This document shows, piece by piece, positions 35,897-59,694 of a stretch of DNA of 64,000 nucleotides. Numbering within the stretch: position 1 is the stretch's first letter; every line of letters starts with the position of its first letter. Source of the DNA: an uncultured SAR86 cluster bacterium (GTDB lineage: Bacteria; Pseudomonadota; Gammaproteobacteria; Magnimaribacterales; AG-339-G14); NCBI GenBank assembly GCA_902629465.1, contig CACOQX010000001.1, forward strand, positions 17,632-81,631, given 5' to 3'. The notes below the pieces were generated by a model that was given only the letters and a program-made list of their open reading frames with translations, ran no database searches and was not told where the DNA came from. Both the position numbers and the translations under genes were made by a program.

Positions 35897-37090
35897 TTAC
35901 ATTTTATCATCTAAATATCTACTTTTTTCTTCATGCTGGAAGTCAGGAAGGATATCAAAAAAAAGTTTTAATATGTCTCGTTTAGTCCACGTTCCTTTTT
36001 CAGATAGTTTTTCTAATGAATTTAAAAAATAAGTCATTGACTCCTTATTTGAAGCCGTCTTATTTTTTATAACCCCAATAGATTTATATGTTTCCAAATC
36101 AAGAATCTCTGATGAATCATAAAATTCTTCAATAAATTTCTCTCCAGTTGTATCACTTTGTTCAAAATAACATGGCCACTTACCCTTTGAAATAAGATCT
36201 TCCGCATTTCTTCTTGCCTCTTCTTCCGTGCTGCATTCATATGGTTCATAGCCTAAAAGAGAAATGTATTTTTTTGCAATGGTTGTAAAATCATATAAAT
36301 CAGATTCTTTAGACATTTTGGGAAAGAAAATATCTCTATTTTCTCCCATGAGTCCTGATAAGACACATAGCTCTCCGGATTCCTCTTTTGTCAGTAAGTA
36401 TCTCTTTATATTTGTTGGTGCAGTTATAGGTTGTTTTTTTTTGTATCGTTGATTAAACCCAAAAAGAAGAGAGCCATCAGAAAAAGCAACATTTGCGAAC
36501 CTTGCAGAGGAAACATTATGAGAGATGCCTTTATCAAATAACATTCTTTCCATTATGATTTTTGTTGCTCCCATGAGATTCTCAGGATTGGTTGCCTTGT
36601 CAGTAGATACAGAAAAATAATTTTTCAAATTTTTATCTTTGATCATCTTAAGAAGTTTAGATAAAAAGGTTATGTTTACCTTAATCATCCTCATTAAGGA
36701 ATAAGGATCCTTTTCACTTCTTACATGCTTTAAGGCAGAAAAATTAAATATGTAATCATATGGTTCAGTTTCATTAAAAAATACTTCAAACTCTCTTGAG
36801 CCGTAGTCAATGCAAAAAGTTTTAAACTCTCCTGTTATGTAACCTTTGCTACTTCTTAAATCTCTCACGAGTTCAACTAAATTATTTTCGCTGATATCGA
36901 CAACATTAAGAACTTTTGGGTTTCTAAAAAAAATTTTCTTTGTTACGGCTTGTCCGATTGTTCCAGCGGCTCCGATAATTAAAAAACTTGAATTCTCTAT
37001 CTCTTCAGACAAGAGATCTTCATTTTTTTTAAAATCTTCTTTAAATATTGAACGATTTCTGTTTAACAAATCATATGGGTTGATATTCAA
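35897..37090 (-). CDS. soluble WbpM/PglF/CapD-family NDP-HexNAc 4,6-dehydratase
   Basis: 397 aa with Rossmann IIGAAGTIGQA and STDKATNPENLMGATK, i.e. Met in place of the SDR Tyr, as in WbpM/PglF (from memory). Confidence 0.75.
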   Translation of the reverse strand: MNINPYDLLNRNRSIFKEDFKKNEDLLSEEIENSSFLIIGAAGTIGQAVTKKIFFRNPKVLNVVDISENNLVELVRDLRSSKGYITGEFKTFCIDYGSREFEVFFNETEPYDYIFNFSALKHVRSEKDPYSLMRMIKVNITFLSKLLKMIKDKNLKNYFSVSTDKATNPENLMGATKIIMERMLFDKGISHNVSSARFANVAFSDGSLLFGFNQRYKKKQPITAPTNIKRYLLTKEESGELCVLSGLMGENRDIFFPKMSKESDLYDFTTIAKKYISLLGYEPYECSTEEEARRNAEDLISKGKWPCYFEQSDTTGEKFIEEFYDSSEILDLETYKSIGVIKNKTASNKESMTYFLNSLEKLSEKGTWTKRDILKLFFDILPDFQHEEKSRYLDDKM

Positions 37091-44666: not shown

Positions 44667-44670
44667 TTTT

Positions 44671-45948
44671 CTAAGCTTTTTGAAGGATAAATATTTGCTT
44701 GTAAAAAAATCTTATTCTGAGAATTAACTCTAAAATAGATACTATGGTTATCAAAAGCATTACTGAATTAAAATGAAGTTCTATTTCTAGTGATGAATTA
44801 TAAATCATAGGAATACAAAAATACGGTAAAGCAATTAATAAAGTAAGTATATTAGAGAACCAGAAAAATTTAATTTGTCCAAAAATTGGGCCAGAAGCTG
44901 ATATGTAAGTGTTTGCAAGTACAGACAGACCAACTGCGGCAAAGAGAAAATAAAAACTATAAGTAAATTGATTAAAGAAATATTTAGCAACAGGCTCTGA
45001 TACAAAACATACGATTGTAAGAAGTAACACTAAGGCAAACAATTGGAAAAAAAGCTTGATAACAGACTTATAAGTTTTTATTTGAGAAAAATTAGGAATA
45101 TCCTTTATCAAAGACTGATAATTTTTTGCTATATATGGGAAAGAAAACAAACTTGATATCACAGATACAAATGACCAAAAAAATGAATAAATACCCTGTA
45201 TATCAAGTCCTAAGGCGACAGATAAAAAAGTTCTTTCCAAAACCATGATTAGGTTATTAATTTGATTTTGTACAAATTGTGGTCCTGATATAAAAAATAA
45301 GTCTTTCGTGCTTGATAAAATATTTTTTGGAACAAAGAAGTCAGAGATAATGATTTTTCTTATAATCCCAAAACTTAATGATTCAAATATTATTAAAGAA
45401 AATAAACATAAAATATATAAAGACAAGGTCTCGAAAACTAGAATAGTATCGAAGAAAAGTAATGAGAAAAAAATAGTTATCGCAAGAATTATTGAGCGAA
45501 TTAAGTCTCTAAATGAGGCATATAAAACATATCCTAAATTTCTATAAAACTTTCCAAATTCTAGTGAAAGTGATTCTATTGAAATTAAAAGAGGAATAAG
45601 AATTAAAAAAGCAGGAAAAGAAAGAAAAGAAAAAAGAAAAAAACCTATCAATCCTAAAATAATTGCAAGAAAATTTATTCTTAAACCTTGTTTAAGAAAT
45701 AGGTTAAAAACTTGTATTTTTCCTCTCTGATCTTCGCCAACATACTTGGATGAAAAAAATAGACCTAAATCAAGGCCTACTAATGTAGCGCCAAAAGTAA
45801 GAATTGAAATGGAAAGATAATAAACTCCTAAATTTTCTTCGGAAGATAACCAAATTATAGAAATAGGAATAATTGTCCTTATAAGTGTCGCGACAATTCT
45901 TAAAAATAAAGCTAAATCAATATCTTTGAGTAAGTTCTTAAGCGTCAC
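44671..45948 (-). CDS. wzx: MOP-superfamily polysaccharide flippase (Wzx-like)
   Basis: 425 aa with about 12 TM segments, in cluster context. Confidence 0.7.
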   Translation of the reverse strand: MTLKNLLKDIDLALFLRIVATLIRTIIPISIIWLSSEENLGVYYLSISILTFGATLVGLDLGLFFSSKYVGEDQRGKIQVFNLFLKQGLRINFLAIILGLIGFFLFSFLSFPAFLILIPLLISIESLSLEFGKFYRNLGYVLYASFRDLIRSIILAITIFFSLLFFDTILVFETLSLYILCLFSLIIFESLSFGIIRKIIISDFFVPKNILSSTKDLFFISGPQFVQNQINNLIMVLERTFLSVALGLDIQGIYSFFWSFVSVISSLFSFPYIAKNYQSLIKDIPNFSQIKTYKSVIKLFFQLFALVLLLTIVCFVSEPVAKYFFNQFTYSFYFLFAAVGLSVLANTYISASGPIFGQIKFFWFSNILTLLIALPYFCIPMIYNSSLEIELHFNSVMLLITIVSILELILRIRFFYKQIFILQKA

Positions 45949-48724: not shown

Positions 48725-49498
48725 TTAACTTTCTAAATTTCTTACATTATCAAGAATATTACTGATATATATTCTAGATTTTTCAAATCCATTTCCAATA
48801 AAGTTAAAAAGGTTTCCAGTTCCTACTGCTGATACTTCCCTATATTTTAAAGCCTCTACAAAGTGTTCCGGTTTTCCAGCACCTCCACAAATTATAAGTG
48901 GCATAGATAATTCTGGTAAAGAATTCAATATCATAGGATCGAACCCTATTCCTGTTCCATCTCTATCAATGTCGTTAATCATAATTTCGCCTACTCCTAA
49001 CTTCTGAAATAGTTTTAGATGTTCATCAAATTTTAAATATCTATTTTCTCCATTGTCACAGTATGTTAAGACCTCACCTTGCTCTCTTTTGAAGTCTATA
49101 GAACCAACTACAGCTTGTGCTCCATATTTTTCAATACAAGACGAAATAAAGTTTGTATTTTTAGATATAACTGAGTTAAGCACAATTTTATCTGCGCCTG
49201 AATCAAAATAATTTTGTACTTTATCATGATTTATGACACCCCCACCCAAAGAAAGAGGTACAAAAATATTTGTCATGATTTGTTTTACGGCGAGGGTAAA
49301 AATTTCATTATTATTTTGATATTTATTTCTAGAAACATCTAGGATAACTAATTCATCAATAAAATTTCCTATCTGAGAAAAGTTGAACTTATCAATAAGC
49401 CACCTTACATCTCCAACTTCTTGAAGTCGAAAATTTCTACTCAAGCAAAAAACTCCCTCTTTATAGAAGAGAATGAAAATCAATCTTTTTTTTAGCAT
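48725..49498 (-). CDS. hisF: HisF paralogue (WbuZ-type glycosyl amidation cyclase subunit)
   Basis: 257 aa TIM-barrel HisF pattern (DELVILD, GGGV, DRDGTG, GGAG), sitting in a polysaccharide context. Confidence 0.85.
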   Translation of the reverse strand: MLKKRLIFILFYKEGVFCLSRNFRLQEVGDVRWLIDKFNFSQIGNFIDELVILDVSRNKYQNNNEIFTLAVKQIMTNIFVPLSLGGGVINHDKVQNYFDSGADKIVLNSVISKNTNFISSCIEKYGAQAVVGSIDFKREQGEVLTYCDNGENRYLKFDEHLKLFQKLGVGEIMINDIDRDGTGIGFDPMILNSLPELSMPLIICGGAGKPEHFVEALKYREVSAVGTGNLFNFIGNGFEKSRIYISNILDNVRNLES

Positions 49499-50103
49499 GT
49501 ACAGAATTCTTTTAGAATTTTTAGTCCTAAGATTCCAGATTTTTCAGGGTGAAATTGTGTTGCAAATATATTATTAAGTTTGATTGTGGAAATGATATCA
49601 ATTGTTCCATATTGAACAGAACTGTACTTAACATTTTTTATATCTCTTTTTGAAGCTCCATAAGAATGAATGAAATAAAAATCTTTTTTGTAGACTAAAT
49701 CTTTAAAAAAACCATCATCTTCACAGTGAGAAACTTCATTGAAACCAACATGCGGTATTTTTTCATTACATCCTAAATTTTTTAAATTTTTTACATTTAA
49801 ATCTAATAAACCCAAACCCTTTCTTAATCCTTCTTCACTATCTTTACAAAGAAGTTGCATGCCCAGACAAATACCTAATATTTTTGTGTTTGCAAAATCT
49901 AACTTTTTTAAAGAATCAAATAAATCTGCTTTTTCTAATGCGTCAACTCCGGAATCAAAGGAGCCTACGCCTGGAAGTATGAGGTGAGAGAAAGTTCCTA
50001 AATTTGATTTCGATTTTATGGTTTCAAAATTAACTTCTAGATTTTTAAGAGCATTTTGGAGAGAGCCAATATTGTTTATTCCTAAATCAATTATTCCAAT
50101 CAT
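49492..50103 (-). CDS. hisH: HisH paralogue (WbuY-type glutamine amidotransferase subunit)
   Basis: 203 aa with GICLGMQLL (catalytic Cys) and FHPEKS. Confidence 0.85.
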   Translation of the reverse strand: MIGIIDLGINNIGSLQNALKNLEVNFETIKSKSNLGTFSHLILPGVGSFDSGVDALEKADLFDSLKKLDFANTKILGICLGMQLLCKDSEEGLRKGLGLLDLNVKNLKNLGCNEKIPHVGFNEVSHCEDDGFFKDLVYKKDFYFIHSYGASKRDIKNVKYSSVQYGTIDIISTIKLNNIFATQFHPEKSGILGLKILKEFCTC

Positions 50104-51212
50104 ACAATCTCAAAAGAGGGAATCCATTTATTATCAATCTTTTCAAATAAGTCTTTGTTGGCCCATTTATCTATAACTTCGTTAAATTCATCTTTGCTCA
50201 TTTGGAAATACTCTAAGTATTCATCTAAATACTCTTCGGGCAACTGGTTATCATAAATATTTACCAATTGAATCGCCTGTTCCCTAGTCATAGCTCCCCT
50301 TCTAATATCAATTCCCGCATCTTGGGTAGCTCTTCCAAATCCAAATTTTAGATACATTAAGTAGGTATGTAAGTCATAAAGAACATTATCGTTCTGCGCG
50401 AAATTTGTATAAGTTCCGGTATTTTGTGATTCTCTTTCTTGAAGTCCACAATTCTCCTTAGCTATAAGGTAATTTCTATAAGGGTCCCAAGCCTCAAAAT
50501 ATGACCAATGTGCCATTTCGATATTCAAATTTGTCTCTGGAAATTCCCAAAAATAAAGGTCCTCTTTTGAAAGATTTTTATAAGTTACGTCATGATGTTT
50601 CTCTAAATATATTTCTTTAGTAAATTCAGGAGAAAAAGTTGCAGAGTATTTTGAAAAATTTGATCCACCATACTCAATTTCTCCATCTTCTCCATACATG
50701 ATAAGAGAAATCCCAAAATTACTTGCAACTCTTGAAACAGCTGTAAATATTGCTGTTGTCCATCCATAAAGGGGTCTTCCTTGCTCAATGAATCCTCTTT
50801 TATTCATCTGCATGAGAGTTTCATAGGGAAGGTTAACTTCGATAAGGGGAAACCCACTTTTTTTAAAATTCTCTAAATTTATAAAGCCAATTTCTGATCT
50901 AGTAGGAGGATGAACTGTTATACAAAGTGGATTGAGGCCGTATCTATTTTTGCATGTATAAGCCACGTAACTTCCATCTTTACCGCCACTAACTGGGACT
51001 AAAATATCAAATGGAGAGTCGTTTTTGTGTTTTTTAATTAATTCTAAAAGTTCTTTTTCTCTAGATTCCCAATCAATCTTCTCCTTCTCTTTTGACCACT
51101 TACAAGCATTACAAACACCATCCTCATCAAACTCAATTCTTGGTCTAGTAGACATGTTCAAACAAGATGAACACCAAAAAAATTGTTTCTCGTTATTATT
51201 TTTAGAATTCAT
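50100..51212 (-). CDS. N-acetyl-sugar amidotransferase (WbpG/PseA family, PP-loop)
   Basis: 370 aa with an N-terminal Cys4 cluster (CSSC...CNAC) and the PP-loop VPVSGGKDGSY. Confidence 0.8.
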   Translation of the reverse strand: MNSKNNNEKQFFWCSSCLNMSTRPRIEFDEDGVCNACKWSKEKEKIDWESREKELLELIKKHKNDSPFDILVPVSGGKDGSYVAYTCKNRYGLNPLCITVHPPTRSEIGFINLENFKKSGFPLIEVNLPYETLMQMNKRGFIEQGRPLYGWTTAIFTAVSRVASNFGISLIMYGEDGEIEYGGSNFSKYSATFSPEFTKEIYLEKHHDVTYKNLSKEDLYFWEFPETNLNIEMAHWSYFEAWDPYRNYLIAKENCGLQERESQNTGTYTNFAQNDNVLYDLHTYLMYLKFGFGRATQDAGIDIRRGAMTREQAIQLVNIYDNQLPEEYLDEYLEYFQMSKDEFNEVIDKWANKDLFEKIDNKWIPSFEIV

Positions 51213-51219
51213 AAGTCTT

Positions 51220-51933
51220 TTAAAGAAATTTTTTTGATAAATATTCTGCTATGTAGAAGTCTTCTATTGAATCTATCTCAATGTTCTTAAATTTTGGCAT
51301 TTCTTTGGCAATGGTACGCTCATGATGGAAACTTCTTTTTTTTAACAAAGTCTCAGTTTTGGAGATATAAATACTACCATCTAAAAAATATAAATCTTCT
51401 AATTCTTGTCTTCTTAATGCTCTGAATTTTTTAAATCCTACATAGGGTTTCATAAATGAGTTTTTATCAATTTTTATCGAAAAACTTGGATGAGAGTCAA
51501 TTAATTTGCCAACAGATATAAGAGCATCTGCATTTTTTCTTTTTTTATGAAGGAGATTAAGACAATTTGAGATATCTTCAGAGGTAGTCAATGGTGAAGT
51601 AGGTTCAAGCATTACAATATATTCAAAATATTGATTCTGTTTTTGATAAAATTTTATTGCATGTTCCAAAACATCAATTGTGGTCGCTGAAGAAGAAGAA
51701 ATATGTTTTGGTCTCAAAAAAGGAGCTTCAGCCCCATATTCAATTGCGAGTTTCTGATACTCTATAGAATCAGTTGATACTAAAACTTTATCTATAATCT
51801 TATTTTCTTTTAATGCCTTTAATGGCCAAGTTAAAAGAGGATGTCCTTTAAAATTTAAAATATTTTTATTTTTTAAACCCTTTGAACCTGATCGGGCAGG
51901 TACAATTCCTAATACTTTTTGTTTTTTAATCAT
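51220..51933 (-). CDS. neuA: CMP-nonulosonic acid synthetase (acylneuraminate cytidylyltransferase family)
   Basis: 237 aa with GIVPARSGSKGLKNKN. The symbol is family-level only. Confidence 0.85.
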   Translation of the reverse strand: MIKKQKVLGIVPARSGSKGLKNKNILNFKGHPLLTWPLKALKENKIIDKVLVSTDSIEYQKLAIEYGAEAPFLRPKHISSSSATTIDVLEHAIKFYQKQNQYFEYIVMLEPTSPLTTSEDISNCLNLLHKKRKNADALISVGKLIDSHPSFSIKIDKNSFMKPYVGFKKFRALRRQELEDLYFLDGSIYISKTETLLKKRSFHHERTIAKEMPKFKNIEIDSIEDFYIAEYLSKKFL

Positions 51934-52985
51934 TAAGAAAATTTAATTTCTTCTGCCTTAGAAATATCTTCAGGTTTTCCAACATCTACCCAAGATTCAT
52001 AAATTGGATAAATGATAGTTTTATATTTCCTATCCTTTAACCTAAGAAATAAATCCGGCATATCACAATACTCATTTTCACTTAATTCCGATATGCATCT
52101 GTGGTTTAGTACATATACTCCCGCATTTATCAGGCTGTAAGAAATTGGTTTTTCTTCAAAGCCGGTAATATTAAAGCCATCCGCATGAACGACTCCATAA
52201 GAATTTTGGTGCATAAAACTGTTGACTGCCATAGTTGCATGAGAATTTCTTTTTGAATGAAATCTAAGTATTTTATGATAATTCAAGTTTGTAAGAACAT
52301 CAGCATTTGTAACTAAAAATGGTAAATCCGTATCTGGTCTAAACAAAGAAATAGCTCCAGCTGTTCCTAAAGGCTTTCTTTCCTCAATGAATTTTATGTT
52401 GACTCCGAAATTTTCATTTCTCTCTAAAAATTCTACAATTCTATTTTTTAGATAATTTAAAGAGATATAAAAATTTATGAATCCTTCTTCTTTTGCATTT
52501 TCTATTATTCTTTGAATTAAGGGTTTTCCAGAAACTTCGACCATTGGCTTAGGCTTATCTTTAGTAATGCTTCCAAGTCTAATACCCTTACCGCCTGCCA
52601 TTATTAAGAAAGGATTATCAATTTTTGAACTGACTCCCGATGACATCAAATCAAAAACTCCAGCGACTTTACTATCTTCAATAATTGGTAGTTTTTGAAT
52701 TTTTTTATTTAGCATTAATTCTTTTGCGGCTTCAAAATCAATTGAGTTATTGGTGATAACAGGGTTTGGATTCATAGCTAAATATACGGGAGATTTTAAA
52801 TCTATCTTTTTTAGTATTGCTCTCCTAATATCCCCATCAGTAAGAGTACCAATGAATTCATCATCTTTGTTAACAACCAAAAGTATCTGTAGCCCACTTT
52901 TTTCAAGAGTTTTTATAGCCTTAATAAGAGAGGATTCTTTAAAAATTAAAGTTTTTTTCCATTTTTTTTCTTCTAATTTATTCAT
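51933..52985 (-). CDS. CBS-pair + sugar-1-phosphate nucleotidyltransferase (PtmE-like)
   Basis: 350 aa with N-terminal tandem CBS domains, then MAGGKGIRLGSITKDKPKPM. Confidence 0.8.
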   Translation of the reverse strand: MNKLEEKKWKKTLIFKESSLIKAIKTLEKSGLQILLVVNKDDEFIGTLTDGDIRRAILKKIDLKSPVYLAMNPNPVITNNSIDFEAAKELMLNKKIQKLPIIEDSKVAGVFDLMSSGVSSKIDNPFLIMAGGKGIRLGSITKDKPKPMVEVSGKPLIQRIIENAKEEGFINFYISLNYLKNRIVEFLERNENFGVNIKFIEERKPLGTAGAISLFRPDTDLPFLVTNADVLTNLNYHKILRFHSKRNSHATMAVNSFMHQNSYGVVHADGFNITGFEEKPISYSLINAGVYVLNHRCISELSENEYCDMPDLFLRLKDRKYKTIIYPIYESWVDVGKPEDISKAEEIKFS

Positions 52986-52994
52986 GTTTTAAGA

Positions 52995-53588
52995 TCAATT
53001 ATTATCTTTCACCAAAGATGCAGCTTTTATAAAGGAATTTTTTCTTAATTTTACTCCTTGTATTACTGTGGACCCCGCTCCAATATAAGAGTCGTTACCA
53101 ATATCTACGTCCCCACATATGCAAGAAGAAGGCGCAACATGAGTATTTTTTCCAATTAAAGAATTATGATCAATTGAAACTCTTGAATTTATAATACAAT
53201 TATCACCTATCGAAACCTTTGTTTGAACTATTGAGCCAGCCATTATTTGAATACCTTCACCTAAAACCACATCTTCTGCTACATATGAAAAAGGGTGAAT
53301 TAAGTTAGGTATCGAAAATCCATTTTTCTTTATTTTTTCGAAGACTTCATTTCTTTTATTTTCTGAGGGTTTTGCTCCCAATCCTAAGGCAATATTGTAT
53401 TTGGATGCATCTAATTTAAGCAAAGCGTTATCGCTGCCTAATACTTTTAAATCATTCCATGATTCATTATTTTTCACTTCTTCAAAGACAGGATCGCAAA
53501 CTCCTTCTATAGGATATTTTAAATCTTTCAAAAGCCTACAAACGACCTCGCCGTGACCACCAGTACCCAGAATAATAAAAGGCTTCAT
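52995..53588 (-). CDS. NeuD/PglD-family sugar N-acetyltransferase
   Basis: 197 aa with an N-terminal Rossmann-like ILGTGGHG followed by hexapeptide repeats. Confidence 0.8.
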   Translation of the reverse strand: MKPFIILGTGGHGEVVCRLLKDLKYPIEGVCDPVFEEVKNNESWNDLKVLGSDNALLKLDASKYNIALGLGAKPSENKRNEVFEKIKKNGFSIPNLIHPFSYVAEDVVLGEGIQIMAGSIVQTKVSIGDNCIINSRVSIDHNSLIGKNTHVAPSSCICGDVDIGNDSYIGAGSTVIQGVKLRKNSFIKAASLVKDNN

Positions 53589-53597
53589 ATTTTTTTA

Positions 53598-54671
53598 TTA
53601 ATCGATTGAATCATTCTCAGAATAATTTTTATTGGATATCGTGCCGAGGAGATTCCAGTAATTTTCTGGATACAAACCAGTCTCTGCTCTAATGATTTTC
53701 AGGTTTTTAGAAGAAAATTTTTCCCCCTTTTTAATTTTTCTAGATGCCACAATTTTCTTTCTTACTTTGTCTCTAACTTCCCACTCATTCTTTTGAGTTT
53801 TTTTTATACCATCGCCTAAAGCATTTTCTAAAGATCTTATATTCTCTATCAGTCTCTTTAATTCTTTGGGCTCTAAAGAGGAGCTGTGGTCTGGACCATC
53901 TAAATTTTTATCTAGGGTTAAATGCTTTTCAATAATTTTTGCACCCAAAGCTATTGCTCCTATAGGTAAATGTATGCCTAGAGAATGATCTGAAAACCCA
54001 ACCGTAATCTTGAAAGCTTTTTTTAAAGTTTTGATAGCATTTAAATTTATTTCATTATCTTTTGCAGGATAATTTGATAGGCAGTGAAGAATTGAAACTT
54101 TTTTTCGAAATTTTTTTATATCCAACTTAGACCATAAAGCCCAAACTTCGTCTAAATCTTTAGGCTGAGTCTCAGAAATAAATCCGTGATTTAAAACTGC
54201 CAAGGCGAGTTCAATATCTGAGAGATTGGACATTCCTGTAGAGAGGATTACATTTTTCTTTAAATTTGCAATTTTCCATAAAAATGGAAGATTATTTATT
54301 TCTCCTGAGGGAATTTTAAAGAAAGGAACCCTTAAAGAATTAAGAAAACTGAGACTTTCATAGTCAAAAGGAGTTGAGATAAAATCTATTTTCATTTTTC
54401 TAGCATTCGAAATTAAATCTTTATAGAACGACTTTGGTAGTTCAAGTTTTTTTAGCATTTCATACTGCGAAGAAACATCTTTTGAAGATTTTTTTTGATA
54501 ATTAGCTTTCTCTAAAGTCTTGCTTGTGATCTTTTTTGCATTAAAAGTTTGAAATTTAATTGCATTTGCACCGGCCATTGCAGCTTCTTCTATTAACCTA
54601 ATAGCCATAGCTTTGTCACCGTTGTGATTTACACCCGCTTCAGCAATGAAATATGTTTTATTTTGGTTCAT
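53598..54671 (-). CDS. neuB: nonulosonic acid synthase (NeuB/LegI family) with C-terminal SAF domain
   Basis: 357 aa with FIAEAGVNHNGD and DAIKFQ-like (NAIKFQTF). The symbol is family-level only. Confidence 0.9.
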   Translation of the reverse strand: MNQNKTYFIAEAGVNHNGDKAMAIRLIEEAAMAGANAIKFQTFNAKKITSKTLEKANYQKKSSKDVSSQYEMLKKLELPKSFYKDLISNARKMKIDFISTPFDYESLSFLNSLRVPFFKIPSGEINNLPFLWKIANLKKNVILSTGMSNLSDIELALAVLNHGFISETQPKDLDEVWALWSKLDIKKFRKKVSILHCLSNYPAKDNEINLNAIKTLKKAFKITVGFSDHSLGIHLPIGAIALGAKIIEKHLTLDKNLDGPDHSSSLEPKELKRLIENIRSLENALGDGIKKTQKNEWEVRDKVRKKIVASRKIKKGEKFSSKNLKIIRAETGLYPENYWNLLGTISNKNYSENDSID

Positions 54672-55339
54672 TTAATTTCTTTTAAAAGCATGAAGGATTC
54701 AGCTGCCAATGTTCCGGATTGTGCTCCTCTCAAGACTGCAAGAGCATTTATTGCCTTTTCACTTCTTGGAAAAGGAAATTTATTTATTTCTGATTTGTAG
54801 ATTTTCATAATAGAAATTTTTTTCTTGATAAATTTTGAAATATCTATGAAAACATTCGGATTAAAAGTTTCTGAAAAGCTTTTTACTGAACCAAAATCTG
54901 TTTCGGAAATAGTTTCATAAACATAAAGAGATTTTAATTTTTTATTCCGAAAAGTTTTTGATGCGGCAATAATAGAATTGAAAACAACTTTATGATCACT
55001 GTGCACGTCATTTTTAAATGGAATGTACATGATTTCTGGCTGAATTTTTTTTAATACTCTAGAGAATTCTTTAATAATTTCTGCCATAGGTTTAGTATCT
55101 AAATAAGAGGTTTCAAAACCAGATCTTAAAACCTCATTAAATTTATAGGCTTTTGAGACTTTTTCTATCTGTTTGTTCCTTTCGATGATTTCTTTTTCAG
55201 AATAACCTCCTTGTGAATTCATCTCAGTGACTATTAACCAATAGATTTCATCACCTTGTGCTTGATGCTTTAAGATGGTTCCTCCGCACCCTAAAGTCTC
55301 ATCATCTGGATGAGGTGCCACTACTAAAACTTTACTCAT
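54668..55339 (-). CDS. PIG-L/LmbE-family de-N-acetylase
   Basis: 223 aa with VVAPHPDDETLGCGG and HSDH. Confidence 0.85.
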   Translation of the reverse strand: MSKVLVVAPHPDDETLGCGGTILKHQAQGDEIYWLIVTEMNSQGGYSEKEIIERNKQIEKVSKAYKFNEVLRSGFETSYLDTKPMAEIIKEFSRVLKKIQPEIMYIPFKNDVHSDHKVVFNSIIAASKTFRNKKLKSLYVYETISETDFGSVKSFSETFNPNVFIDISKFIKKKISIMKIYKSEINKFPFPRSEKAINALAVLRGAQSGTLAAESFMLLKEIK

Positions 55340-56237
55340 AAAAAAATTCTCCTTCGATTTTATCTTTAAATTGTTTTTTGCTAAATGAGATGGCCATGTC
55401 TCCAGTTTTCACAATCAGTTCTTTAGAATTGTTTTTAATTATTCTTCCGGGTTCTTGGTTATCTATTTTTATATTCACTATTTTTGAGTTACTTACAAGA
55501 AATTTTTTTTTATTGTAGATGAAATAAGCTCCGGGATATGGATCTGCAAGTGCTCTTACCAAATTATAAATGTTTTTACTATTCATTCTCCAATCTATCT
55601 TTCCATCAATTTCACTTCTTTTTCTCCAAACATTAGAATCTTTTTTTAGTTGTCGAATAGGATTTATTGAATCGTTAATAAAATTATCAATAATTTCATT
55701 TATCTGAACGGGAATAACCTTGAGAACCTTATTGTATAAGTCCTTTGCGTAATCCTTATTAGAAATTTTGATGATTTTTTGATTTAAAATGTCTCCCGCG
55801 TCAGGTTCTTTAGTTAAGAAGAAGAATGTCGAAGCTGTTTTCTTTAATCCTAGTACTAAAGCCCATATTAGGGGATGCCTTCCTCTATTTTTTGGGAGTT
55901 CAGCTGGATGAAACCCAATAATTTTATTTTTATAAAAACTTAAAACAGGTTCTTTAATGATTTTTGACCAACCTATGACAAATACTAAGTCTATTTTGTG
56001 ATTATCTAAGATTTTTCTTTGAACATTGAAATCTTTGATATTTTCTTCATAAAAGAAATCAATCTTTTTTTTCTTTGCCTTCTTTCCAAGATCTACAAAA
56101 TCTGAATTGAAGGTTGATTTTTTTGAGCAAATAAGAAGTTTAAAATTTATCTTTTTATTTTCTAAAAGCGCATCAAAGGCAATGTCGCTTGATTTGACGC
56201 AGCCTATAAGGCAAACATTTAGTTTTTTAAAGATCAT
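55332..56237 (-). CDS. formyltransferase-family protein (Fmt/ArnA N-domain-like)
   Basis: 301 aa with IIGFHPAELPKNRGRHPL and EPDAGDIL, plus a C-terminal Fmt-like beta-barrel domain. Confidence 0.75.
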   Translation of the reverse strand: MIFKKLNVCLIGCVKSSDIAFDALLENKKINFKLLICSKKSTFNSDFVDLGKKAKKKKIDFFYEENIKDFNVQRKILDNHKIDLVFVIGWSKIIKEPVLSFYKNKIIGFHPAELPKNRGRHPLIWALVLGLKKTASTFFFLTKEPDAGDILNQKIIKISNKDYAKDLYNKVLKVIPVQINEIIDNFINDSINPIRQLKKDSNVWRKRSEIDGKIDWRMNSKNIYNLVRALADPYPGAYFIYNKKKFLVSNSKIVNIKIDNQEPGRIIKNNSKELIVKTGDMAISFSKKQFKDKIEGEFFYE

Positions 56238-57381
56238 GAAATTCTTTTAAAAGAATATTTTGAAGATTTATTTTAGAAATTATTTTATGTATTTTTTTAG
56301 ATGCCCCTTTTTTACCATAAGGAGTTTCTTTCCTATTAGCAATATTTTTAAATTCTTTAGAAAGACCTTTTTTAATAGATAAAAAGATTTGTTTTGAATT
56401 ATAAGTTGAATGCAAAACAGATGGTGCCTTTATCCTTCCTTGTTGTCTTACTCCGATATCTAAACTCGGAGTACCAAGATAAGGTGCCTCTATTATCCCA
56501 CTCGAAGAATTGCCAATGACCAAATCGGAAATGTTCATTAATGATGAATAAATTTTTGAACCAAGAGACTCAAAATAGAAAATGTTGTTATTTTTTTTGA
56601 ATTTTAATCTTTGTGTTTCTTTTCTTATTTTTTCTCCCCAGGTATCTGCATTATTGCCAGTAATTACGATGGTGCCATCAAACTTTAAGAGATTTTTTAA
56701 AATATTTTTAAAAATGATTTCTTCATCGATACTACCAAGAGTTACAGGATGAAAGGTAAATAAAAAAATAGGAGGTTTCAAAGTAATTTTTAGAATTTTT
56801 TCAAGTTCGTTTGTATTTAGAAAATTACTTCTTATCAAATTATCATATCCCAAAGCGCCAACATTCCAAATAGAACTTGGTTTTTCACCAAGCTGAATGA
56901 GTCTTTTTTTGTATTTTTGACAGGATACAAAGTGAAGATGTGACATTTTTGAAATACTATGTCGAATTGCTTCATCAATTAAGCCAAAAGTGCTTTCTCC
57001 TCCATGAATATGTGCAATCGGGATTCTGTGTATCATTGCAGCTTGTGCAGCTGCAAGAGCCTCATATCTATCGCCTAAAATGATTAATAAATCTGGCTTT
57101 AGAGAGAATAAAACTTCAGATGTTTTCCTTACTGCCAGAGACAAAGATTTAGAAATACCCTTTGGTGAATCATCTTTGGTGAGGATTTTAAATTTAGAGC
57201 TAATTTTAAAGTTATCCTTCTGAATTTGTTTCCAAGTGCTGCCAAACTTCTTTTCTAGATGAGATCCTGTAACAATCATATTAAAAATTATATTTTTATC
57301 TTCTTTGACGATTTCCATGAGAGGTTTCATTAGCCCGTAGTCAGCTCTACTTCCTGTAAAAAAAGCTACATTTCTTTTCAT
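56227..57381 (-). CDS. neuC: hydrolysing NDP-HexNAc 2-epimerase (NeuC/LegG family)
   Basis: 384 aa with LGDRYEALAAAQAA and HIHGGE. The symbol is family-level only. Confidence 0.85.
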   Translation of the reverse strand: MKRNVAFFTGSRADYGLMKPLMEIVKEDKNIIFNMIVTGSHLEKKFGSTWKQIQKDNFKISSKFKILTKDDSPKGISKSLSLAVRKTSEVLFSLKPDLLIILGDRYEALAAAQAAMIHRIPIAHIHGGESTFGLIDEAIRHSISKMSHLHFVSCQKYKKRLIQLGEKPSSIWNVGALGYDNLIRSNFLNTNELEKILKITLKPPIFLFTFHPVTLGSIDEEIIFKNILKNLLKFDGTIVITGNNADTWGEKIRKETQRLKFKKNNNIFYFESLGSKIYSSLMNISDLVIGNSSSGIIEAPYLGTPSLDIGVRQQGRIKAPSVLHSTYNSKQIFLSIKKGLSKEFKNIANRKETPYGKKGASKKIHKIISKINLQNILLKEFHDL

Positions 57382-58532
57382 TTTTTTTTAATTATGGGAG
57401 AACTAGGAAGATTTATGAGCCTTTCCCAAATATTTTGCGAAACGGTTAAATCCGTTGGGAAACAATTTTTGAACATTGGCAAGGCATTCATTAAACTCCA
57501 GGCGGGCCTTACATAAATTTTTCTTTTATTTAAATAATTGATCATTCTTTTTCTTTCTTTAATGTTTGGAGCCAAAATAGCATTTAACCAATAATTAGAA
57601 CGTGCTTCCGGAGGTTCTTTAAAAAATAGATAATCGCTTCCGTCATAAAAATCTTTATATAAATTTGCAATTTTTCTCTTAGAAGAAATATATTTATCAA
57701 TTTTTTTTAGCTGGGATATGCCTAAAGAAGCATTTAAGTTAGGTAACCGATAATTATATCCAATAGCGTCATGGAAAAATTCTAGAGGATTTTTTTTTGC
57801 TGTGGTGGATAAATGCCTTGATAATGTTCCCGCTTTTTTGGACTTACATATAAGTGCTCCACCCCCTCCAGTAGTAATGATTTTATTTCCATTAAAGCTT
57901 AAAGTTCCAAAGTTACCAAATGTCCCCGTATGCTTATTTTTATAAGTAGTGCCTAGACTCTCCGCGGCGTCTTCAATAACTTTTACATTTTTTTTTCTAC
58001 AAATATTTATAATTTTGTCTATCAGTGCAGGATGTCCATAAGTGTGCATTACAATCAAAGCTTTTATTGGTCTTTTAGACTTTTTTTCTAAACAAGTTCC
58101 AAATTTATTCATTACAGTATGTTCGTCAAAAAATTCTTTTAATTTTTCGGGGCAGATGCTGAGAGTTTTAGGTGAAATATCAATAAATATTGGGTCTGCC
58201 AAGAGGTAAGAAATACAATTTGCAGCCGCAACGAAATTAAATGCTTGTGAGATAACAAAATCATTTTTCTTTACTCCGCTCATGATGAGCGAAAGATGTA
58301 AAGCTGAAGTTCCATTTACAGTAGAAACTACATCTGTTGCATTTGTATATTTCTGTAACTTGATTTCAAATTTCGAAACATTTTTTCCGTAGGTAGAAAC
58401 ATATGAACTTTTTATGGATGATGTAACAGAACTTATGTCCTCTTTAGAAAAATAAGGTTCATGAAGGCTTATGTCTTTCTTGCCTCTGTAAATTTCTCTT
58501 ATAAAGCTTTCTGAATCTTTTAAAACATTCAT
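57378..58532 (-). CDS. DegT/DnrJ/EryC1/StrS-family sugar aminotransferase (LegC/PglE-like)
   Basis: 384 aa with the PLP-lysine region SFNGNKIITTGGGG. Confidence 0.9.
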   Translation of the reverse strand: MNVLKDSESFIREIYRGKKDISLHEPYFSKEDISSVTSSIKSSYVSTYGKNVSKFEIKLQKYTNATDVVSTVNGTSALHLSLIMSGVKKNDFVISQAFNFVAAANCISYLLADPIFIDISPKTLSICPEKLKEFFDEHTVMNKFGTCLEKKSKRPIKALIVMHTYGHPALIDKIINICRKKNVKVIEDAAESLGTTYKNKHTGTFGNFGTLSFNGNKIITTGGGGALICKSKKAGTLSRHLSTTAKKNPLEFFHDAIGYNYRLPNLNASLGISQLKKIDKYISSKRKIANLYKDFYDGSDYLFFKEPPEARSNYWLNAILAPNIKERKRMINYLNKRKIYVRPAWSLMNALPMFKNCFPTDLTVSQNIWERLINLPSSPIIKKK

Positions 58533-59455
58533 TTAGCTTTATTATTAGAACTGTAAATGGCCCAAACTATTGAAATAATTAAACCTATAAGAAAACCAAA
58601 TATTCCAAGAGAAAGTCTTGAAGGGTAGGATTTCTTTTCAGGTACAAAGGGTTTATCGATAATTTCCAATAAGTACTCATCTGAAATTTCAGTCATCATT
58701 TTCACTTCGAGTTGCTTTTCAATCAGTTTTGAGATTGATTTATTGAGAAAATCTAAAGAATTTTTTGCTGACTCCATTTGCAAGAATAATATCGCTTTTT
58801 CTGCATTCTCTTTGTCTCTCGATCTTGAGATTAGGTTGATTTCTCTGATAATTACATCGAGTAGATTTTTAGAAAAAACTGGAGAAATATGTTCGGCTGA
58901 CATCTTTATATGCCCCGTAAGTTTATTTTTGCTGATTTTAAATACTTCCTTGATATAGACTTCATGAGCTTCAAGATAAGAAGGTTTTTCTTTTTCAGAA
59001 AAAAATGATTTTTTTTTCCATATTTTTTGTCTTGAATCATACAAAGATTCATCAAATTCTAATATATTGTCAATTGAATTAAACTGCTTTGGAGCCATAA
59101 GCGATGGCAAAACCCATTCATACTTATATATCAAAGTTTCTAAAAAGGACCTTGAAGTAGATATAGCAATTGCCAAATCAGCTTTTTCGTCTCCAGATAA
59201 AGCTTCACCAACTCCAAAAGAAGCTGCTAATCCAGCTAACTCAGAAAACCCGGCCTGAGAATCATTCAAGTTATCATTTGAAACTGCCAATAAAGATTCA
59301 GATTTATAGTAATTTGGTATAAATAAAGAAAATAAAGAAAACAAAATCATTAAAAGAAAAGAAGATAAAAGTATAAAAAGCGATCTATTCCTTATTATAT
59401 GAATAAGGTTTTCAATATTTAACTTGCTATTATTTTCTTGGCCTTCAAAGTTCAT
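58529..59455 (-). CDS. wzz: polysaccharide chain-length determinant (Wzz, PCP-1 type)
   Basis: 308 aa with TM segments at both ends, a coiled-coil-like middle and no kinase domain. Confidence 0.75.
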   Translation of the reverse strand: MNFEGQENNSKLNIENLIHIIRNRSLFILLSSFLLMILFSLFSLFIPNYYKSESLLAVSNDNLNDSQAGFSELAGLAASFGVGEALSGDEKADLAIAISTSRSFLETLIYKYEWVLPSLMAPKQFNSIDNILEFDESLYDSRQKIWKKKSFFSEKEKPSYLEAHEVYIKEVFKISKNKLTGHIKMSAEHISPVFSKNLLDVIIREINLISRSRDKENAEKAILFLQMESAKNSLDFLNKSISKLIEKQLEVKMMTEISDEYLLEIIDKPFVPEKKSYPSRLSLGIFGFLIGLIISIVWAIYSSNNKAK

Positions 59456-59460
59456 AACTG

Positions 59461-59547
59461 TGGTACCTGGGGCCGGACTTGAACCGGCACGAAGTTGCCT
59501 TCGAGGGATTTTAAGTCCCTTGTGTCTACCAATTCCACCACCCAGGC
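59461..59547 (-). tRNA. tRNA-Leu (anticodon UAA), CCA encoded
   Basis: Reverse complement: GCCTGGGTGGTGGAATTGGTAGACACAAGGGACTTAAAATCCCTCGAAGGCAACTTCGTGCCGGTTCAAGTCCGGCCCCAGGTACCA. Has a long variable arm and anticodon loop CTTAAAA. Close to E. coli leuZ (from memory). Confidence 0.95.
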
Positions 59548-59583
59548 TTTGGAGAGTACTTTATACTAAATTCATAATAATAG

Positions 59584-59613
59584 TTTATAGAAATCTCTCA
59601 TAGATTCTATCAA
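59584..59613 (-). promoter_or_regulatory. candidate sigma70-type promoter between tRNA-Cys and tRNA-Leu
   Basis: On the minus strand: TTGATA (59613-59608), 18-nt spacer, TATAAA (59589-59584). Matches like this arise easily by chance in DNA this AT-rich. Confidence 0.25.
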
Positions 59614-59620
59614 GTTTAAA

Positions 59621-59694
59621 TGGAGGCTGAGGTCGGAATCGAACCGGCGTAGACGGATTTGCAATCCGCTGCATGACCACTCTGCCACTCAGCC
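59621..59694 (-). tRNA. tRNA-Cys (anticodon GCA), CCA encoded
   Basis: Reverse complement: GGCTGAGTGGCAGAGTGGTCATGCAGCGGATTGCAAATCCGTCTACGCCGGTTCGATTCCGACCTCAGCCTCCA. Confidence 0.95.

What the first reader, a model, noticed from the sequence alone, without database searches (positions are those of the whole stretch)
54668..56237. PIG-L de-N-acetylase + atypical formyltransferase inserted between the NulO synthase and 2-epimerase genes
Two genes overlap each other by 8 nt (55332-55339). The pair overlaps neuC-like by 11 nt and neuB-like by 4 nt, so it is embedded in the NulO core. A zinc deacetylase (PHPDDE, HSDH) next to a formyltransferase-fold enzyme suggests removal of an N-acetyl group and re-acylation, for example to N-formyl. 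Such a group is chemically known on some Pse/Leg derivatives, but I am not aware of an assigned enzyme pair. The transferase motif reads IIGFHPAELPKNRGRHPL. The catalytic His and downstream Asp (EPDAGDIL) are present. The Asn two residues before the His in Fmt/PurN/ArnA (INVHGSLLP, LNIHPSLLP, FNLHGSLLP, from memory) is Gly here, and SLLP becomes AELP. That may indicate altered chemistry or a different acyl donor.
Basis: partly seen in the sequence, partly recalled or inferred. Interest (0 to 1): 0.6.

Follow-up and report, generated by a model that had tools for sequence, protein, structure and literature searches.

The report
Deacetylase plus atypical formyltransferase sugar-editing pair
Two overlapping genes inside a legionaminic-acid (bacterial sialic-acid-like sugar) cluster belong to a widespread, biochemically untested two-enzyme module that most likely swaps the sugar's 5-N-acetyl group for a formyl group, using a formyltransferase subfamily that lacks the usual catalytic asparagine.

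Summary
On the minus strand, a 301-aa Formyl_trans_N+C protein (55332-56237) and a 223-aa PIG-L deacetylase (54668-55339) overlap each other and the neuC-like and neuB-like genes by 11, 8 and 4 nt. They sit in a legionaminic-acid-type cluster.

The Asn-to-Gly change is real and ungapped against ArnA, Fmt and canonical sugar formyltransferases. It is not specific to this gene: Gly108, His110, Pro111 and Asp146 are invariant in 236 relatives.

The pair is a conserved module. At least 464 species-representative genomes carry a relative. PIG-L lies directly downstream in 77 of 78 testable loci, and neuC directly upstream in 59 of 73.

Haloarchaea have the same module. One locus matches the gene order and sizes reported for Halorubrum sp. 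PV6, which makes 5-N-formyl-legionaminic acid. Eleven of 80 loci also carry a canonical Asn-x-His formyltransferase, mostly where the LegH acetyltransferase was not detected. That suggests the Gly-type enzyme has a separate, position-specific role.

Best reading (confidence about 0.55): PIG-L removes the acetyl group that becomes N5, and the Gly-type enzyme formylates that amine. No enzyme assay exists. A 2018 paper and a 2026 preprint propose similar putative assignments. I rate this a new variant of a known kind, of moderate interest.

The parts
55332..56237 (-). Gly-type (GxHP) formyltransferase-fold enzyme, 301 aa, with N-terminal catalytic domain and C-terminal Fmt/ArnA-like domain
   Evidence: Pfam PF00551 66.1 bits and PF02911 72.3 bits. 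Below the cut-off of every NCBIfam equivalog: fmt 118 vs 201.5, ArnA 145 vs 777, PRK06988 147 vs 316. AlphaFold model pLDDT 92.5. Best PDB folds are the ArnA formyltransferase domain and Fmt, TM 0.82-0.85 at no more than 24% identity.
55869..55922 (-). Active-site loop IIGFHPAELPKNRGRHPL (residues 106-123): Gly108 replaces the canonical Asn, His110 is retained, Ala112 replaces the canonical Ser, and the LP..RG folate loop is retained
   Evidence: G108, H110 and P111 are invariant in 236/236 relatives; position 112 is Ala in 218/236.
55785..55808 (-). EPDAGDIL (residues 144-151) containing the catalytic Asp146
   Evidence: Aligns with ArnA Asp140. D146 is invariant in 236/236.
54668..55339 (-). 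PIG-L/LmbE-family zinc de-N-acetylase, 223 aa
   Evidence: Pfam PF02585 80.8 bits. Below the BshB1, BshB2 and MshB cut-offs. Nearest solved relatives are diacetylchitobiose deacetylase and TT1542. Motifs PHPDDE (55298-55315) and HSDH (54992-55003) located.
56227..57381 (-). NeuC/LegG-like hydrolysing NDP-sugar 2-epimerase
   Evidence: TIGR03568 438.7 bits against a cut-off of 235.9. Lies immediately upstream of the Fmt-like gene in 59/73 related loci.
53598..54671 (-). NeuB/LegI-like nonulosonic acid synthase
   Evidence: TIGR03569 437.3 bits against a cut-off of 399.65; PF03102 304.7 bits.
57378..58532 (-). LegC-family aminotransferase
   Evidence: TIGR04181 457.7 bits against a cut-off of 420.
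52995..53588 (-). NeuD/LegH-type sugar N-acetyltransferase; predicted to acetylate the 4-amino group that becomes N7
   Evidence: TIGR03570 185.2 bits against a cut-off of 160.8; PglD_N plus Hexapep domains. The N7 role is inferred.
51933..52985 (-). PtmE-like CBS + sugar-1-phosphate nucleotidyltransferase (marker of the GDP-sugar route)
   Evidence: PF00571 plus PF00483. A homologue is present in 56/80 related loci.
51220..51933 (-). CMP-nonulosonic acid synthetase (LegF-like)
   Evidence: PF02348 88 bits. The PseF model scores 156 bits, below its cut-off of 205.7.
48725..51212 (-). WbuX amidotransferase (50100-51212), HisH-like (49492-50103) and HisF-like (48725-49498): an N-acetyl to acetamidino conversion set. 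It is an accessory, not part of the pair.
   Evidence: TIGR03573 334.3 bits against a cut-off of 203.2. GATase and His_biosynth domains on the identical contigs. A WbuX homologue is present in only 11/80 related loci.
35897..37090 (-). Candidate LegB-type NDP-GlcNAc 4,6-dehydratase of the same island
   Evidence: PF02719 Polysacc_synt_2 128.6 bits. The assignment to the Leg pathway is inferred.
59461..59694 (-). tRNA-Leu(taa) and tRNA-Cys(gca) bounding the glycan island just 5' of the Wzz gene (58529-59455)
   Evidence: ARAGORN; Wzz domain.

Best explanation
The two genes form an 'N5 acyl-swap' module of a GDP-linked legionaminic acid pathway.

The core enzymes (PtmE, a LegB-type dehydratase, LegC, LegH, LegG/NeuC, LegI/NeuB, LegF) build a 2,4-diacetamido-2,4,6-trideoxy-hexose and then the nine-carbon sugar. 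The 2-N-acetyl group, which becomes N5 of the final sugar, is inherited from GlcNAc. It can only be changed by removing it.

The proposed steps are:
1. The PIG-L zinc hydrolase removes that acetyl group.
2. The Gly-type formyltransferase-fold enzyme re-acylates the free amine with formyl from N10-formyl-tetrahydrofolate, using the retained His110/Asp146 pair.
3. The product is Leg5Fo7Ac, activated as the CMP-sugar.

Shown here: the domain families, the motifs, the Gly substitution, the tight and phylum-spanning FMT-PIG-L-NeuC linkage, and the alternation between LegH and a canonical formyltransferase.

Inferred: the substrate position (N5), the formyl donor, and the stage at which the swap occurs. 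Gene order suggests it happens between LegG and LegI. The preprint's CMP-sugar data only place it before glycan assembly.
For: 1. Obligate pairing. PIG-L lies directly downstream of the Fmt-like gene in 77/78 loci, and neuC directly upstream in 59/73. The loci span Proteobacteria, Campylobacter, Leptospira, Nitrospira, Prochlorococcus, Bacteroidota, Bacilli and Clostridia; 464 species genomes matched. A deacylase that always accompanies a transacylase is most simply an acyl swap.

2. Context is always Leg-type: homologues of NeuB in 64, PtmE in 56, LegC in 49 and LegF in 49 of the 80 loci.

3. Haloarchaeal orthologues (G-M-H-P, 125 sequences) sit in LegG(385 aa)-FMT(317)-NeuD(208)-PIG-L(222)-NeuB(347) (L089). 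This order, and the 1158, 954, 627 and 1044 bp gene sizes, match HrrPV6_1049, 1050, 1051 and 1053 (PCR products of 1163, 953, 629 and 1053 bp) of Halorubrum sp. PV6. Its glycan ends in 5-N-formyl-legionaminic acid, and 1050 was proposed there as the N-formyltransferase (PMC6137143). The unmentioned gene 1052 would be the PIG-L.

4. Division of labour. Among the 56 loci longer than 15 kb, 35 have LegH only, 6 have a canonical Asn-x-His formyltransferase only, 2 have both, and 13 have neither. In Halorussus the canonical enzyme best resembles dTDP-4-amino-4,6-dideoxyglucose formyltransferase. The 4-amino group (N7) is therefore served by LegH or a canonical enzyme, leaving N5 to the Gly-type enzyme plus PIG-L.

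5. All known substrates of the solved PIG-L relatives are 2-acetamido sugars (established knowledge of MshB, BshB and diacetylchitobiose deacetylase).

6. The fold, the His, the Asp and the LP..RG folate loop are conserved.

7. Independent mass-spectrometry data: a leg-like cluster with a deacetylase and a formyltransferase in Ca. Kuenenia accompanies CMP-nonulosonic acids that are deacetylated and formylated.
Against: - No member of this clade has been assayed.
- The canonical oxyanion-stabilising Asn is Gly in every member, and the Ser two residues after the His is Ala in 218/236. Formyl transfer by this active site is therefore unproven.
- I could not retrieve the Halorubrum PV6 or Kuenenia sequences. 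Both links rest on gene order, gene sizes and text descriptions.
- Three Lachnospiraceae loci carry LegH, a canonical formyltransferase and the Gly-type enzyme together (L018, L036, L065). The simple scheme does not explain this.
- N-formyl legionaminic acids are rarely reported, yet the module is common.
- A GFHP-type relative in S. meliloti pSymB has no PIG-L or nonulosonic-acid genes nearby.
Confidence: 0.55

Rival explanations
1. Different chemistry. The Gly-type enzyme is not an N-formyltransferase. Loss of Asn and Ser opens the pocket for another acyl or one-carbon donor, or the protein works as a hydrolase or as a non-catalytic partner of PIG-L. The module would then install a non-formyl group, or none, at N5.
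For: Gly108 is invariant and Ala112 nearly so at two canonical catalytic positions. New clade-wide invariants appear: D46 and G89-W90-S91. The clade scores below the cut-off of every curated formyltransferase equivalog. It co-occurs with canonical formyltransferases in 11/80 loci. N5 substituents other than acetyl or formyl are known in legionaminic acids (established knowledge).
Against: His110, Asp146 and the folate-loop LP..RG..P are invariant. The fold is that of ArnA and Fmt. HypX shows that a modified triad can still use N10-formyl-THF (PMC6802093). The inferred Halorubrum orthologue accompanies an N-formyl product.
Confidence: 0.15
2. Kuenenia-type outcome. The Fmt-like enzyme formylates the 4-amino group (future N7). 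PIG-L simply leaves N5 as a free amine, giving a zwitterionic Leg5N7Fo.
For: The preprint reports CMP-nonulosonic acids with one free and one formylated amine from a leg-like cluster with a deacetylase and a formyltransferase.
Against: A LegH-type acetyltransferase for the 4-amino group is present in this window and in 46/80 loci. Where it was not detected, a canonical formyltransferase sometimes appears in addition to the Gly-type one (6 of 19 such loci longer than 15 kb). The Halorubrum product is 5-N-formyl.
Confidence: 0.12
3. Early-step role. The Fmt-like enzyme formylates GDP-GlcN, the PtmE product that has a free 2-amine, so that the whole pathway runs on 2-formamido intermediates. PIG-L supplies or recycles the amine by deacetylating GlcNAc-1-P or GDP-GlcNAc.
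For: A PtmE-like GlcN-1-P nucleotidyltransferase accompanies the module in 56/80 loci. No N-acetyltransferase for GDP-GlcN is encoded in the cluster. In C. jejuni that step was ascribed to GlmU (established knowledge: Schoenhofen et al. 2009).
Against: The module is glued to neuC and neuB rather than to ptmE. Every downstream enzyme would have to accept formamido substrates. PIG-L would be dispensable, yet it is present in all 78 loci with room for it (adjacent in 77, elsewhere in the locus in one).
Confidence: 0.1
4. Transient protection, following ArnA/ArnD logic. An amine is formylated to pull an unfavourable step forward, and PIG-L later removes the formyl group. The final sugar would carry no formyl.
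For: The closest solved relative is the ArnA formyltransferase domain. This would explain why N-formyl legionaminic acids are rarely reported.
Against: No arn genes are present. ArnD belongs to a different family (CE4), whereas PIG-L enzymes are known as de-N-acetylases. LegH already pulls the LegC transamination forward. Halorubrum and Kuenenia both retain formyl in the final or CMP-activated sugar.
Confidence: 0.08

Closest known systems
Halorubrum sp. PV6 legionaminic acid cluster (HrrPV6_1046-1053; Zaretsky et al. 2018, PMC6137143), product 5-N-formyl-legionaminic acid
   Same: It has the legG-formyltransferase-neuD-[1052]-legI arrangement. A haloarchaeal metagenome locus with the same order and near-identical gene sizes (L089) carries a G-M-H-P orthologue and a PIG-L. 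The Halorussus orthologue shares 29% identity over 97% of the window protein.
   Different: Only the formyltransferase was proposed in that paper, and it was not tested; the deacetylase was not mentioned. The haloarchaeal enzymes lack the bacterial N117 and H121 (NRGRHP becomes GRGRAP). I could not read the PV6 sequences themselves.
Ca. Kuenenia stuttgartiensis leg-like cluster with deacetylase + formyltransferase (SugarBase preprint, 10.64898/2026.04.20.719630)
   Same: A deacetylase and a formyltransferase lie between leg genes, and CMP-nonulosonic acids with a deacetylated and a formylated amine were measured.
   Different: Its product keeps one free amine, and no LegH is mentioned in that cluster. 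Whether its enzymes belong to the Gly-type clade and this PIG-L subfamily is unknown, because the sequences were not retrievable here.
ArnA N-terminal formyltransferase domain and methionyl-tRNA formyltransferase (Fmt)
   Same: Same two-domain fold (TM 0.82-0.85). The His, the Asp and the folate loop align without gaps.
   Different: Identity is no more than 24%. The Asn is Gly and the Ser is Ala. Scores fall far below the ArnA and fmt equivalog cut-offs. The partners and pathway differ. The public annotation 'methionyl-tRNA formyltransferase' is a misnomer.
Canonical sugar N-formyltransferases (WlaRD, FdtF, QdtF, VioF, WbkC; Asn-His-Asp triad)
   Same: Folate-dependent fold acting on amino sugars in surface-glycan clusters. 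Such enzymes (INCHAGxLPxYRGRN) sit beside the module in 11/80 loci.
   Different: They keep the Asn and are not paired with PIG-L. They appear to substitute for LegH rather than for the Gly-type enzyme.
PIG-L/LmbE de-N-acetylases (MshB, BshB1/2, diacetylchitobiose deacetylase, TT1542)
   Same: PF02585 domain and the PHPDD / HxDH zinc motifs. Their substrates are 2-acetamido sugars.
   Different: Scores are below all curated equivalog cut-offs. This subfamily is defined by its adjacency to the Gly-type formyltransferase in legionaminic acid clusters.

Membership tests
Formyl_trans_N / Formyl_trans_C superfamily (PF00551, PF02911) | Both domains score above the Pfam gathering thresholds | tested here: met
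   66.1 bits vs 26.1 and 72.3 bits vs 21.1. The predicted fold matches ArnA and Fmt.
Formyl_trans_N / Formyl_trans_C superfamily (PF00551, PF02911) | Catalytic His and Asp (ArnA His104 and Asp140) | tested here: met
   His110 and Asp146 align without gaps and are invariant in 236/236.
Formyl_trans_N / Formyl_trans_C superfamily (PF00551, PF02911) | Catalytic Asn two residues before the His (PurN Asn106, ArnA Asn102) | tested here: not met
   Gly108 occupies this position. It is Gly in 236/236 clade members.
Formyl_trans_N / Formyl_trans_C superfamily (PF00551, PF02911) | Ser two residues after the His (HxSLLP; called part of the triad for FDH in PMC6802093) | tested here: not met
   Ala112 occupies this position. 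The column is Ala in 218, Ser in 9 and Thr in 9 of 236.
Formyl_trans_N / Formyl_trans_C superfamily (PF00551, PF02911) | N10-formyl-THF-dependent formyl transfer | not testable with these tools
   Only the LP..RG..P folate loop could be checked, and it is conserved.
Methionyl-tRNA formyltransferase (TIGR00460), the usual public annotation | Score above the equivalog cut-off | tested here: not met
   118.1 bits against a cut-off of 201.5.
ArnA / ArnD lipid A Ara4N pathway | ArnA equivalog score; arnB/C/D/T neighbours; CE4-type deformylase | tested here: not met
   144.7 bits against a cut-off of 777. The neighbours are leg genes. The partner is a PIG-L, not a CE4 enzyme.
PIG-L / LmbE deacetylase family (PF02585) | Domain score plus the zinc/catalytic motifs (A/P)HPDD and HxDH | tested here: met
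   80.8 bits against a cut-off of 28.2. PHPDDE at residues 9-14 and HSDH at residues 113-116.
BshB1 / BshB2 / MshB equivalogs | Score above the equivalog cut-off | tested here: not met
   60.2 vs 182.5; 47.5 vs 195.25; 19 vs 224.35 bits.
Legionaminic acid (GDP-route) biosynthesis cluster | LegC-family aminotransferase, hydrolysing 2-epimerase, NeuB-type synthase and NeuD/LegH acetyltransferase, all above their cut-offs | tested here: met
   TIGR04181 457.7 vs 420; TIGR03568 438.7 vs 235.9; TIGR03569 437.3 vs 399.65; TIGR03570 185.2 vs 160.8 bits.
Legionaminic acid (GDP-route) biosynthesis cluster | PtmE-type CBS-nucleotidyltransferase, CMP-sugar synthetase and LegB dehydratase | tested here: inconclusive
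   The domain architectures fit. No curated equivalog was passed: PseF scores 156 bits against a cut-off of 205.7. The LegB candidate at 35897-37090 is assigned by a Pfam domain only.
Legionaminic acid (GDP-route) biosynthesis cluster | Leg stereochemistry of the sugar actually produced | not testable with these tools
   Requires NMR or DMB-HPLC-MS of the sugar.

The most novel reading that the evidence does not exclude
The Gly-type (GxHP) proteins form a distinct enzymatic class within the formyltransferase fold. Having lost both the Asn and the Ser of the canonical site, they would catalyse something other than ordinary N-formylation: a different acyl or one-carbon donor, or a different mechanism built around the new invariants Asp46 and Gly-Trp-Ser 89-91. 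Together with their dedicated PIG-L partner, they would be the general N5-editing device of legionaminic-type sugars in hundreds of bacterial and archaeal species, including abundant marine and gut lineages.
Probability: 0.15. Interest if true: 0.75.

Novelty: new variant of a known kind. Interest (0 to 1): 0.5.

Why it matters
How the N5 substituent of legionaminic and pseudaminic acids is changed from the inherited acetyl group has no biochemically proven enzymes. These substituents determine surface charge, serotype, phage receptors and immune recognition.

This work shows that the gene pair in the window is one copy of a tightly linked module. It is present in at least 464 species, including SAR11, SAR86 and SAR116 relatives, Prochlorococcus, Lachnospiraceae and Roseburia of the gut, Campylobacter concisus, Leptospira and haloarchaea. 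Its transferase is a uniformly Asn-less clade that public databases mislabel as methionyl-tRNA formyltransferase.

That gives a concrete enzyme pair to test, named culturable hosts to test it in, and a natural experiment on whether the 'essential' Asn of formyltransferases is dispensable.

Tried and rejected
1. Nine literature searches. Only the Halorubrum PV6 paper and the SugarBase preprint touch this pair. The papers on nonulosonic-acid clusters in Vibrionaceae, Clostridium, Tannerella, Geobacillus and C. coli do not discuss it.

2. I could not fetch the Halorubrum sp. PV6 (CP030064/MH673034) or Ca. Kuenenia (NZ_LT934425.1) sequences. The single genome scan kept only the best 80 of 464 loci. 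The haloarchaeal clusters carried no organism names. The Halorubrum link therefore rests on gene order and gene sizes.

3. I considered that another Asn replaces the missing one. N117 is invariant in the bacterial sequences but is Gly in haloarchaea, so it is rejected as a universal substitute. Asp46 and Ser91 remain candidates. Model coordinates are not exposed by the tools, so their distance to His110 could not be measured.

4. ArnA/ArnD membership is rejected on scores and context.

5. The Fmt annotation is rejected on score.

6. The plasmid search mostly returned remote relatives (about 29-30% identity) in Sinorhizobium, Rhizobium and Pantoea. The S. meliloti copy is GFHP-type but lies in a polysaccharide cluster without nonulosonic-acid genes, so it does not inform the function here.

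7. I did not identify the source organism. The best species-level relatives share only 44-47% identity.


Full report
**1. What is in the sequence**

Six-frame ORF listing shows an unbroken run of minus-strand genes from about 59.5 kb down to 33.3 kb. The two genes of the finding are 55332-56237 (301 aa) and 54668-55339 (223 aa).
- They overlap each other by 8 nt.
- The 301-aa gene overlaps the upstream neuC-like gene (56227-57381) by 11 nt.
- The 223-aa gene overlaps the downstream neuB-like gene (53598-54671) by 4 nt.

The junctions were read directly.

Pfam assigns the 301-aa protein to Formyl_trans_N plus Formyl_trans_C and the 223-aa protein to PIG-L, all well above threshold. The quoted motifs are present at the stated places.

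**2. The surrounding pathway**

NCBIfam identifies these neighbours:
- a LegC-family aminotransferase: TIGR04181, 457.7 bits against a cut-off of 420
- a hydrolysing 2-epimerase: TIGR03568, 438.7 bits
- a NeuB-type synthase: TIGR03569, 437.3 bits
- a NeuD/LegH-type acetyltransferase: TIGR03570, 185.2 bits
- a WbuX amidotransferase: TIGR03573, 334.3 bits

Pfam adds a CBS-nucleotidyltransferase (PtmE-like) and a cytidylyltransferase. HisH-like and HisF-like genes follow. Farther along the island there is a Polysacc_synt_2 dehydratase, together with glycosyltransferases, a methyltransferase and oxidoreductases.

This is a legionaminic-acid-type, GDP-route cluster inside a surface-glycan island. 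The island is bounded by tRNA-Leu and tRNA-Cys and has lowered GC. Identical arrangements occur on independent marine metagenome contigs.

**3. The Asn-to-Gly substitution**

HMMER aligns residues 80-292 with the ArnA formyltransferase domain without gaps through the active site. Gly108 pairs with Asn102, His110 with His104, and Asp146 with Asp140.

A MAFFT alignment gives the same column.

The substitution is not private to this gene.
- The 120 best database relatives all carry x-G-[FY]-H-P-x-x-L-P-x-N-R-G-R-H-P.
- In a joint alignment of 236 bacterial, haloarchaeal and rhizobial relatives, G108, H110, P111 and D146 are invariant.
- The Ser that follows the His in canonical enzymes is Ala in 218/236.
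- New clade-wide invariants appear: D46 and G89-W90-S91.

The protein falls below the cut-off of every curated formyltransferase model: fmt 118 vs 201.5, ArnA 145 vs 777, PRK06988 147 vs 316.

A confident AlphaFold model (pLDDT 92.5) matches the ArnA formyltransferase domain and Fmt at TM 0.82-0.85, but at no more than 24% identity. No solved structure belongs to this clade.

**4. The pair is a conserved module**

A motif-guided scan of one genome per species found 464 genomes with a relative. The 80 best loci span:
- Gamma-, Alpha- and Betaproteobacteria
- Campylobacter concisus, Leptospira, Nitrospira
- Prochlorococcus, Pelagibacteraceae, SAR86, SAR116
- Bacteroidota, Bacilli and many Clostridia, including Roseburia faecis

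Neighbours were scored with phmmer using the window's own proteins.
- PIG-L lies immediately downstream in 77 of the 78 loci with room for it. The single exception has a PIG-L elsewhere in the locus.
- neuC lies immediately upstream in 59/73.
- Homologues are present in the 80 loci as follows: NeuB 64, PtmE 56, LegC 49, LegF 49, LegH 46, WbuX 11.

A Lachnospiraceae contig shows the same core with precomputed Pfam calls.

**5. A second, canonical formyltransferase**

Eleven of the 80 loci carry a further formyltransferase with the ordinary I-N-C-H-A-G-x-L-P-x-Y-R-G-R-N motif, next to neuB. Among the 56 loci longer than 15 kb:

| Content | Loci |
|---|---|
| LegH only | 35 |
| Canonical formyltransferase only | 6 |
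| Both | 2 |
| Neither | 13 |

A Halorussus plasmid repeats the pattern. It has neuC-PIG-L-neuB, a divergent Gly-type enzyme (LGMHPAPLPRGRGRAP), a 239-aa canonical enzyme and no annotated acetyltransferase. The best NCBIfam match of the 239-aa enzyme is dTDP-4-amino-4,6-dideoxyglucose formyltransferase.

So the 4-amino group (future N7) appears to be acylated either by LegH or by a canonical formyltransferase. The Gly-type enzyme plus PIG-L is the constant element and must do something else. The obvious remaining target is the inherited 2-N-acetyl group (future N5).

**6. Link to a known product**

Halorubrum sp. PV6 decorates its S-layer and a viral spike protein with 5-N-formyl-legionaminic acid. 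Its cluster is described as legG (1049), a predicted formyltransferase (1050), neuD (1051) and legI (1053), with PCR products of 1163, 953, 629 and 1053 bp (PMC6137143).

A haloarchaeal contig carrying the 317-aa orthologue P0226 has LegG (385 aa), FMT (317 aa), NeuD (208 aa), PIG-L (222 aa) and NeuB (347 aa) in that order. The order and sizes match, and the PIG-L falls where the unmentioned gene 1052 would be. All 125 haloarchaeal orthologues read G-M-H-P.

This is an inference from synteny and size. I could not read the PV6 sequences.

Independently, a 2026 preprint reports that Ca. Kuenenia makes CMP-nonulosonic acids with one free and one formylated amine. It points to a leg-like cluster containing a deacetylase and a formyltransferase.

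**7. Most likely mechanism**

PIG-L relatives with known function hydrolyse the 2-acetamido group of GlcNAc-type sugars (established knowledge of MshB, BshB and diacetylchitobiose deacetylase). The simplest scheme has three steps.
1. The core enzymes make the 2,4-diacetamido sugar.
2. PIG-L frees the 2-amine.
3. The Gly-type enzyme formylates it from N10-formyl-THF with His110 and Asp146. The sugar ends as CMP-Leg5Fo7Ac.

Gene order (LegG, FMT, PIG-L, LegI) suggests the swap happens on the free hexose between epimerase and synthase. That is only a hint. The preprint's data say only that it precedes glycan assembly.

HypX is a precedent for a modified triad that still uses formyl-THF (PMC6802093). 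I put this reading at about 0.55.

Rivals:
- non-formyl chemistry or a non-catalytic role: 0.15
- N7 formylation with a free N5 amine: 0.12
- formylation of GDP-GlcN early in the pathway: 0.10
- transient ArnA/ArnD-like protection: 0.08

**8. Comparison with what is known, and novelty**

The enzyme works like a sugar N-formyltransferase and shares the fold. It fails two of the sequence features usually treated as defining the active site (the Asn and the Ser), and it fails every curated equivalog. It should be filed as a distinct clade, not as Fmt or ArnA. The PIG-L is a family member by domain and motifs, but it belongs to no characterised subfamily.

The idea that a deacetylase and a formyltransferase edit legionaminic acid is already in the literature as a prediction (2018, 2026).

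What I did not find described in the searched literature:
- the clade-wide loss of the Asn
- the near-obligate FMT-PIG-L-NeuC linkage across about ten phyla and haloarchaea
- the alternation between LegH and a canonical formyltransferase

I rate it a new variant of a known kind, with interest 0.5.

**9. Limits**
- No assay exists for any member of this clade.
- The Halorubrum and Kuenenia links are indirect.
- Three Lachnospiraceae loci carry LegH, a canonical formyltransferase and the module together, which remains unexplained.
- The source organism was not identified.

Noticed in passing
window 59461-59547 and 59621-59694 (minus); island 33342-59455: tRNA-Leu(taa) and tRNA-Cys(gca) lie directly 5' of the Wzz gene. 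The roughly 26-kb all-minus-strand glycan cluster runs from there to a 3'-5' exonuclease gene (33342-34202). GC drops to 0.27-0.30 at 34-46 kb. It looks like a variable surface-glycan island next to tRNA genes.
   Followed up: partly
window 48725-51212 (minus): WbuX (TIGR03573, 334 bits), HisH-like and HisF-like genes follow the CMP-sugar synthetase. This is an N-acetyl to acetamidino amidotransferase set, so the final sugar may also carry an acetimidoyl group. A WbuX homologue accompanies the module in only 11/80 related loci.
   Followed up: partly
window 41972-45948 (minus): Three consecutive ORFs of 451, 452 and 425 aa have no Pfam hit. They could be a polymerase, a flippase or nonulosonic-acid transferases of the island.
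   Followed up: no
L009, L010, L018, L036, L037, L044, L065, L086 (next to neuB); L087:11099-11821: A second, canonical Asn-x-His formyltransferase (INCHAGxLPxYRGRN) sits beside neuB in several related loci, mostly where LegH was not detected. The Halorussus copy best matches dTDP-4-amino-4,6-dideoxyglucose formyltransferase. This predicts doubly formylated legionaminic acids.
   Followed up: partly
L018, L036, L065 (Lachnospiraceae): LegH, a canonical formyltransferase, the Gly-type enzyme and PIG-L all occur together. The simple one-acyl-group-per-amine scheme does not explain this.
   Followed up: no
L088 (S. meliloti 1021 pSymB 800981-801808): A GFHP-type relative (29% identity, motif GFHPAALPRLRGRG) has no entry in the PLSDB gene table. 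It lies in a Wzy/Wzz/sulfotransferase/PglF-like dehydratase/glycosyltransferase cluster with no nonulosonic-acid genes and no PIG-L. The Asn-less clade is therefore broader than the legionaminic acid module.
   Followed up: partly
L043 (Prochlorococcus sp. AG-686-P16 contig, 8087 bp): NeuB-PIG-L-FMT appears as an inverted duplicate at both ends of the contig with identical scores. This is probably a chimera from single-cell genome assembly.
   Followed up: no
Database annotations of P0023, P0110, P0121 and others: Members of this clade are routinely named 'methionyl-tRNA formyltransferase', although TIGR00460 scores 118-119 bits against a cut-off of 201.5. One paper even interpreted such a gene in C. 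coli clade 2 as affecting translation initiation (PMC12102941); whether that C. coli gene belongs to this clade was not checked.
   Followed up: partly
window 35090-35872 (minus): A 260-aa protein combines a cytidylyltransferase-like domain with a mannose-6-phosphate isomerase C-terminal/cupin domain. This is an unusual fusion within the glycan island.
   Followed up: no
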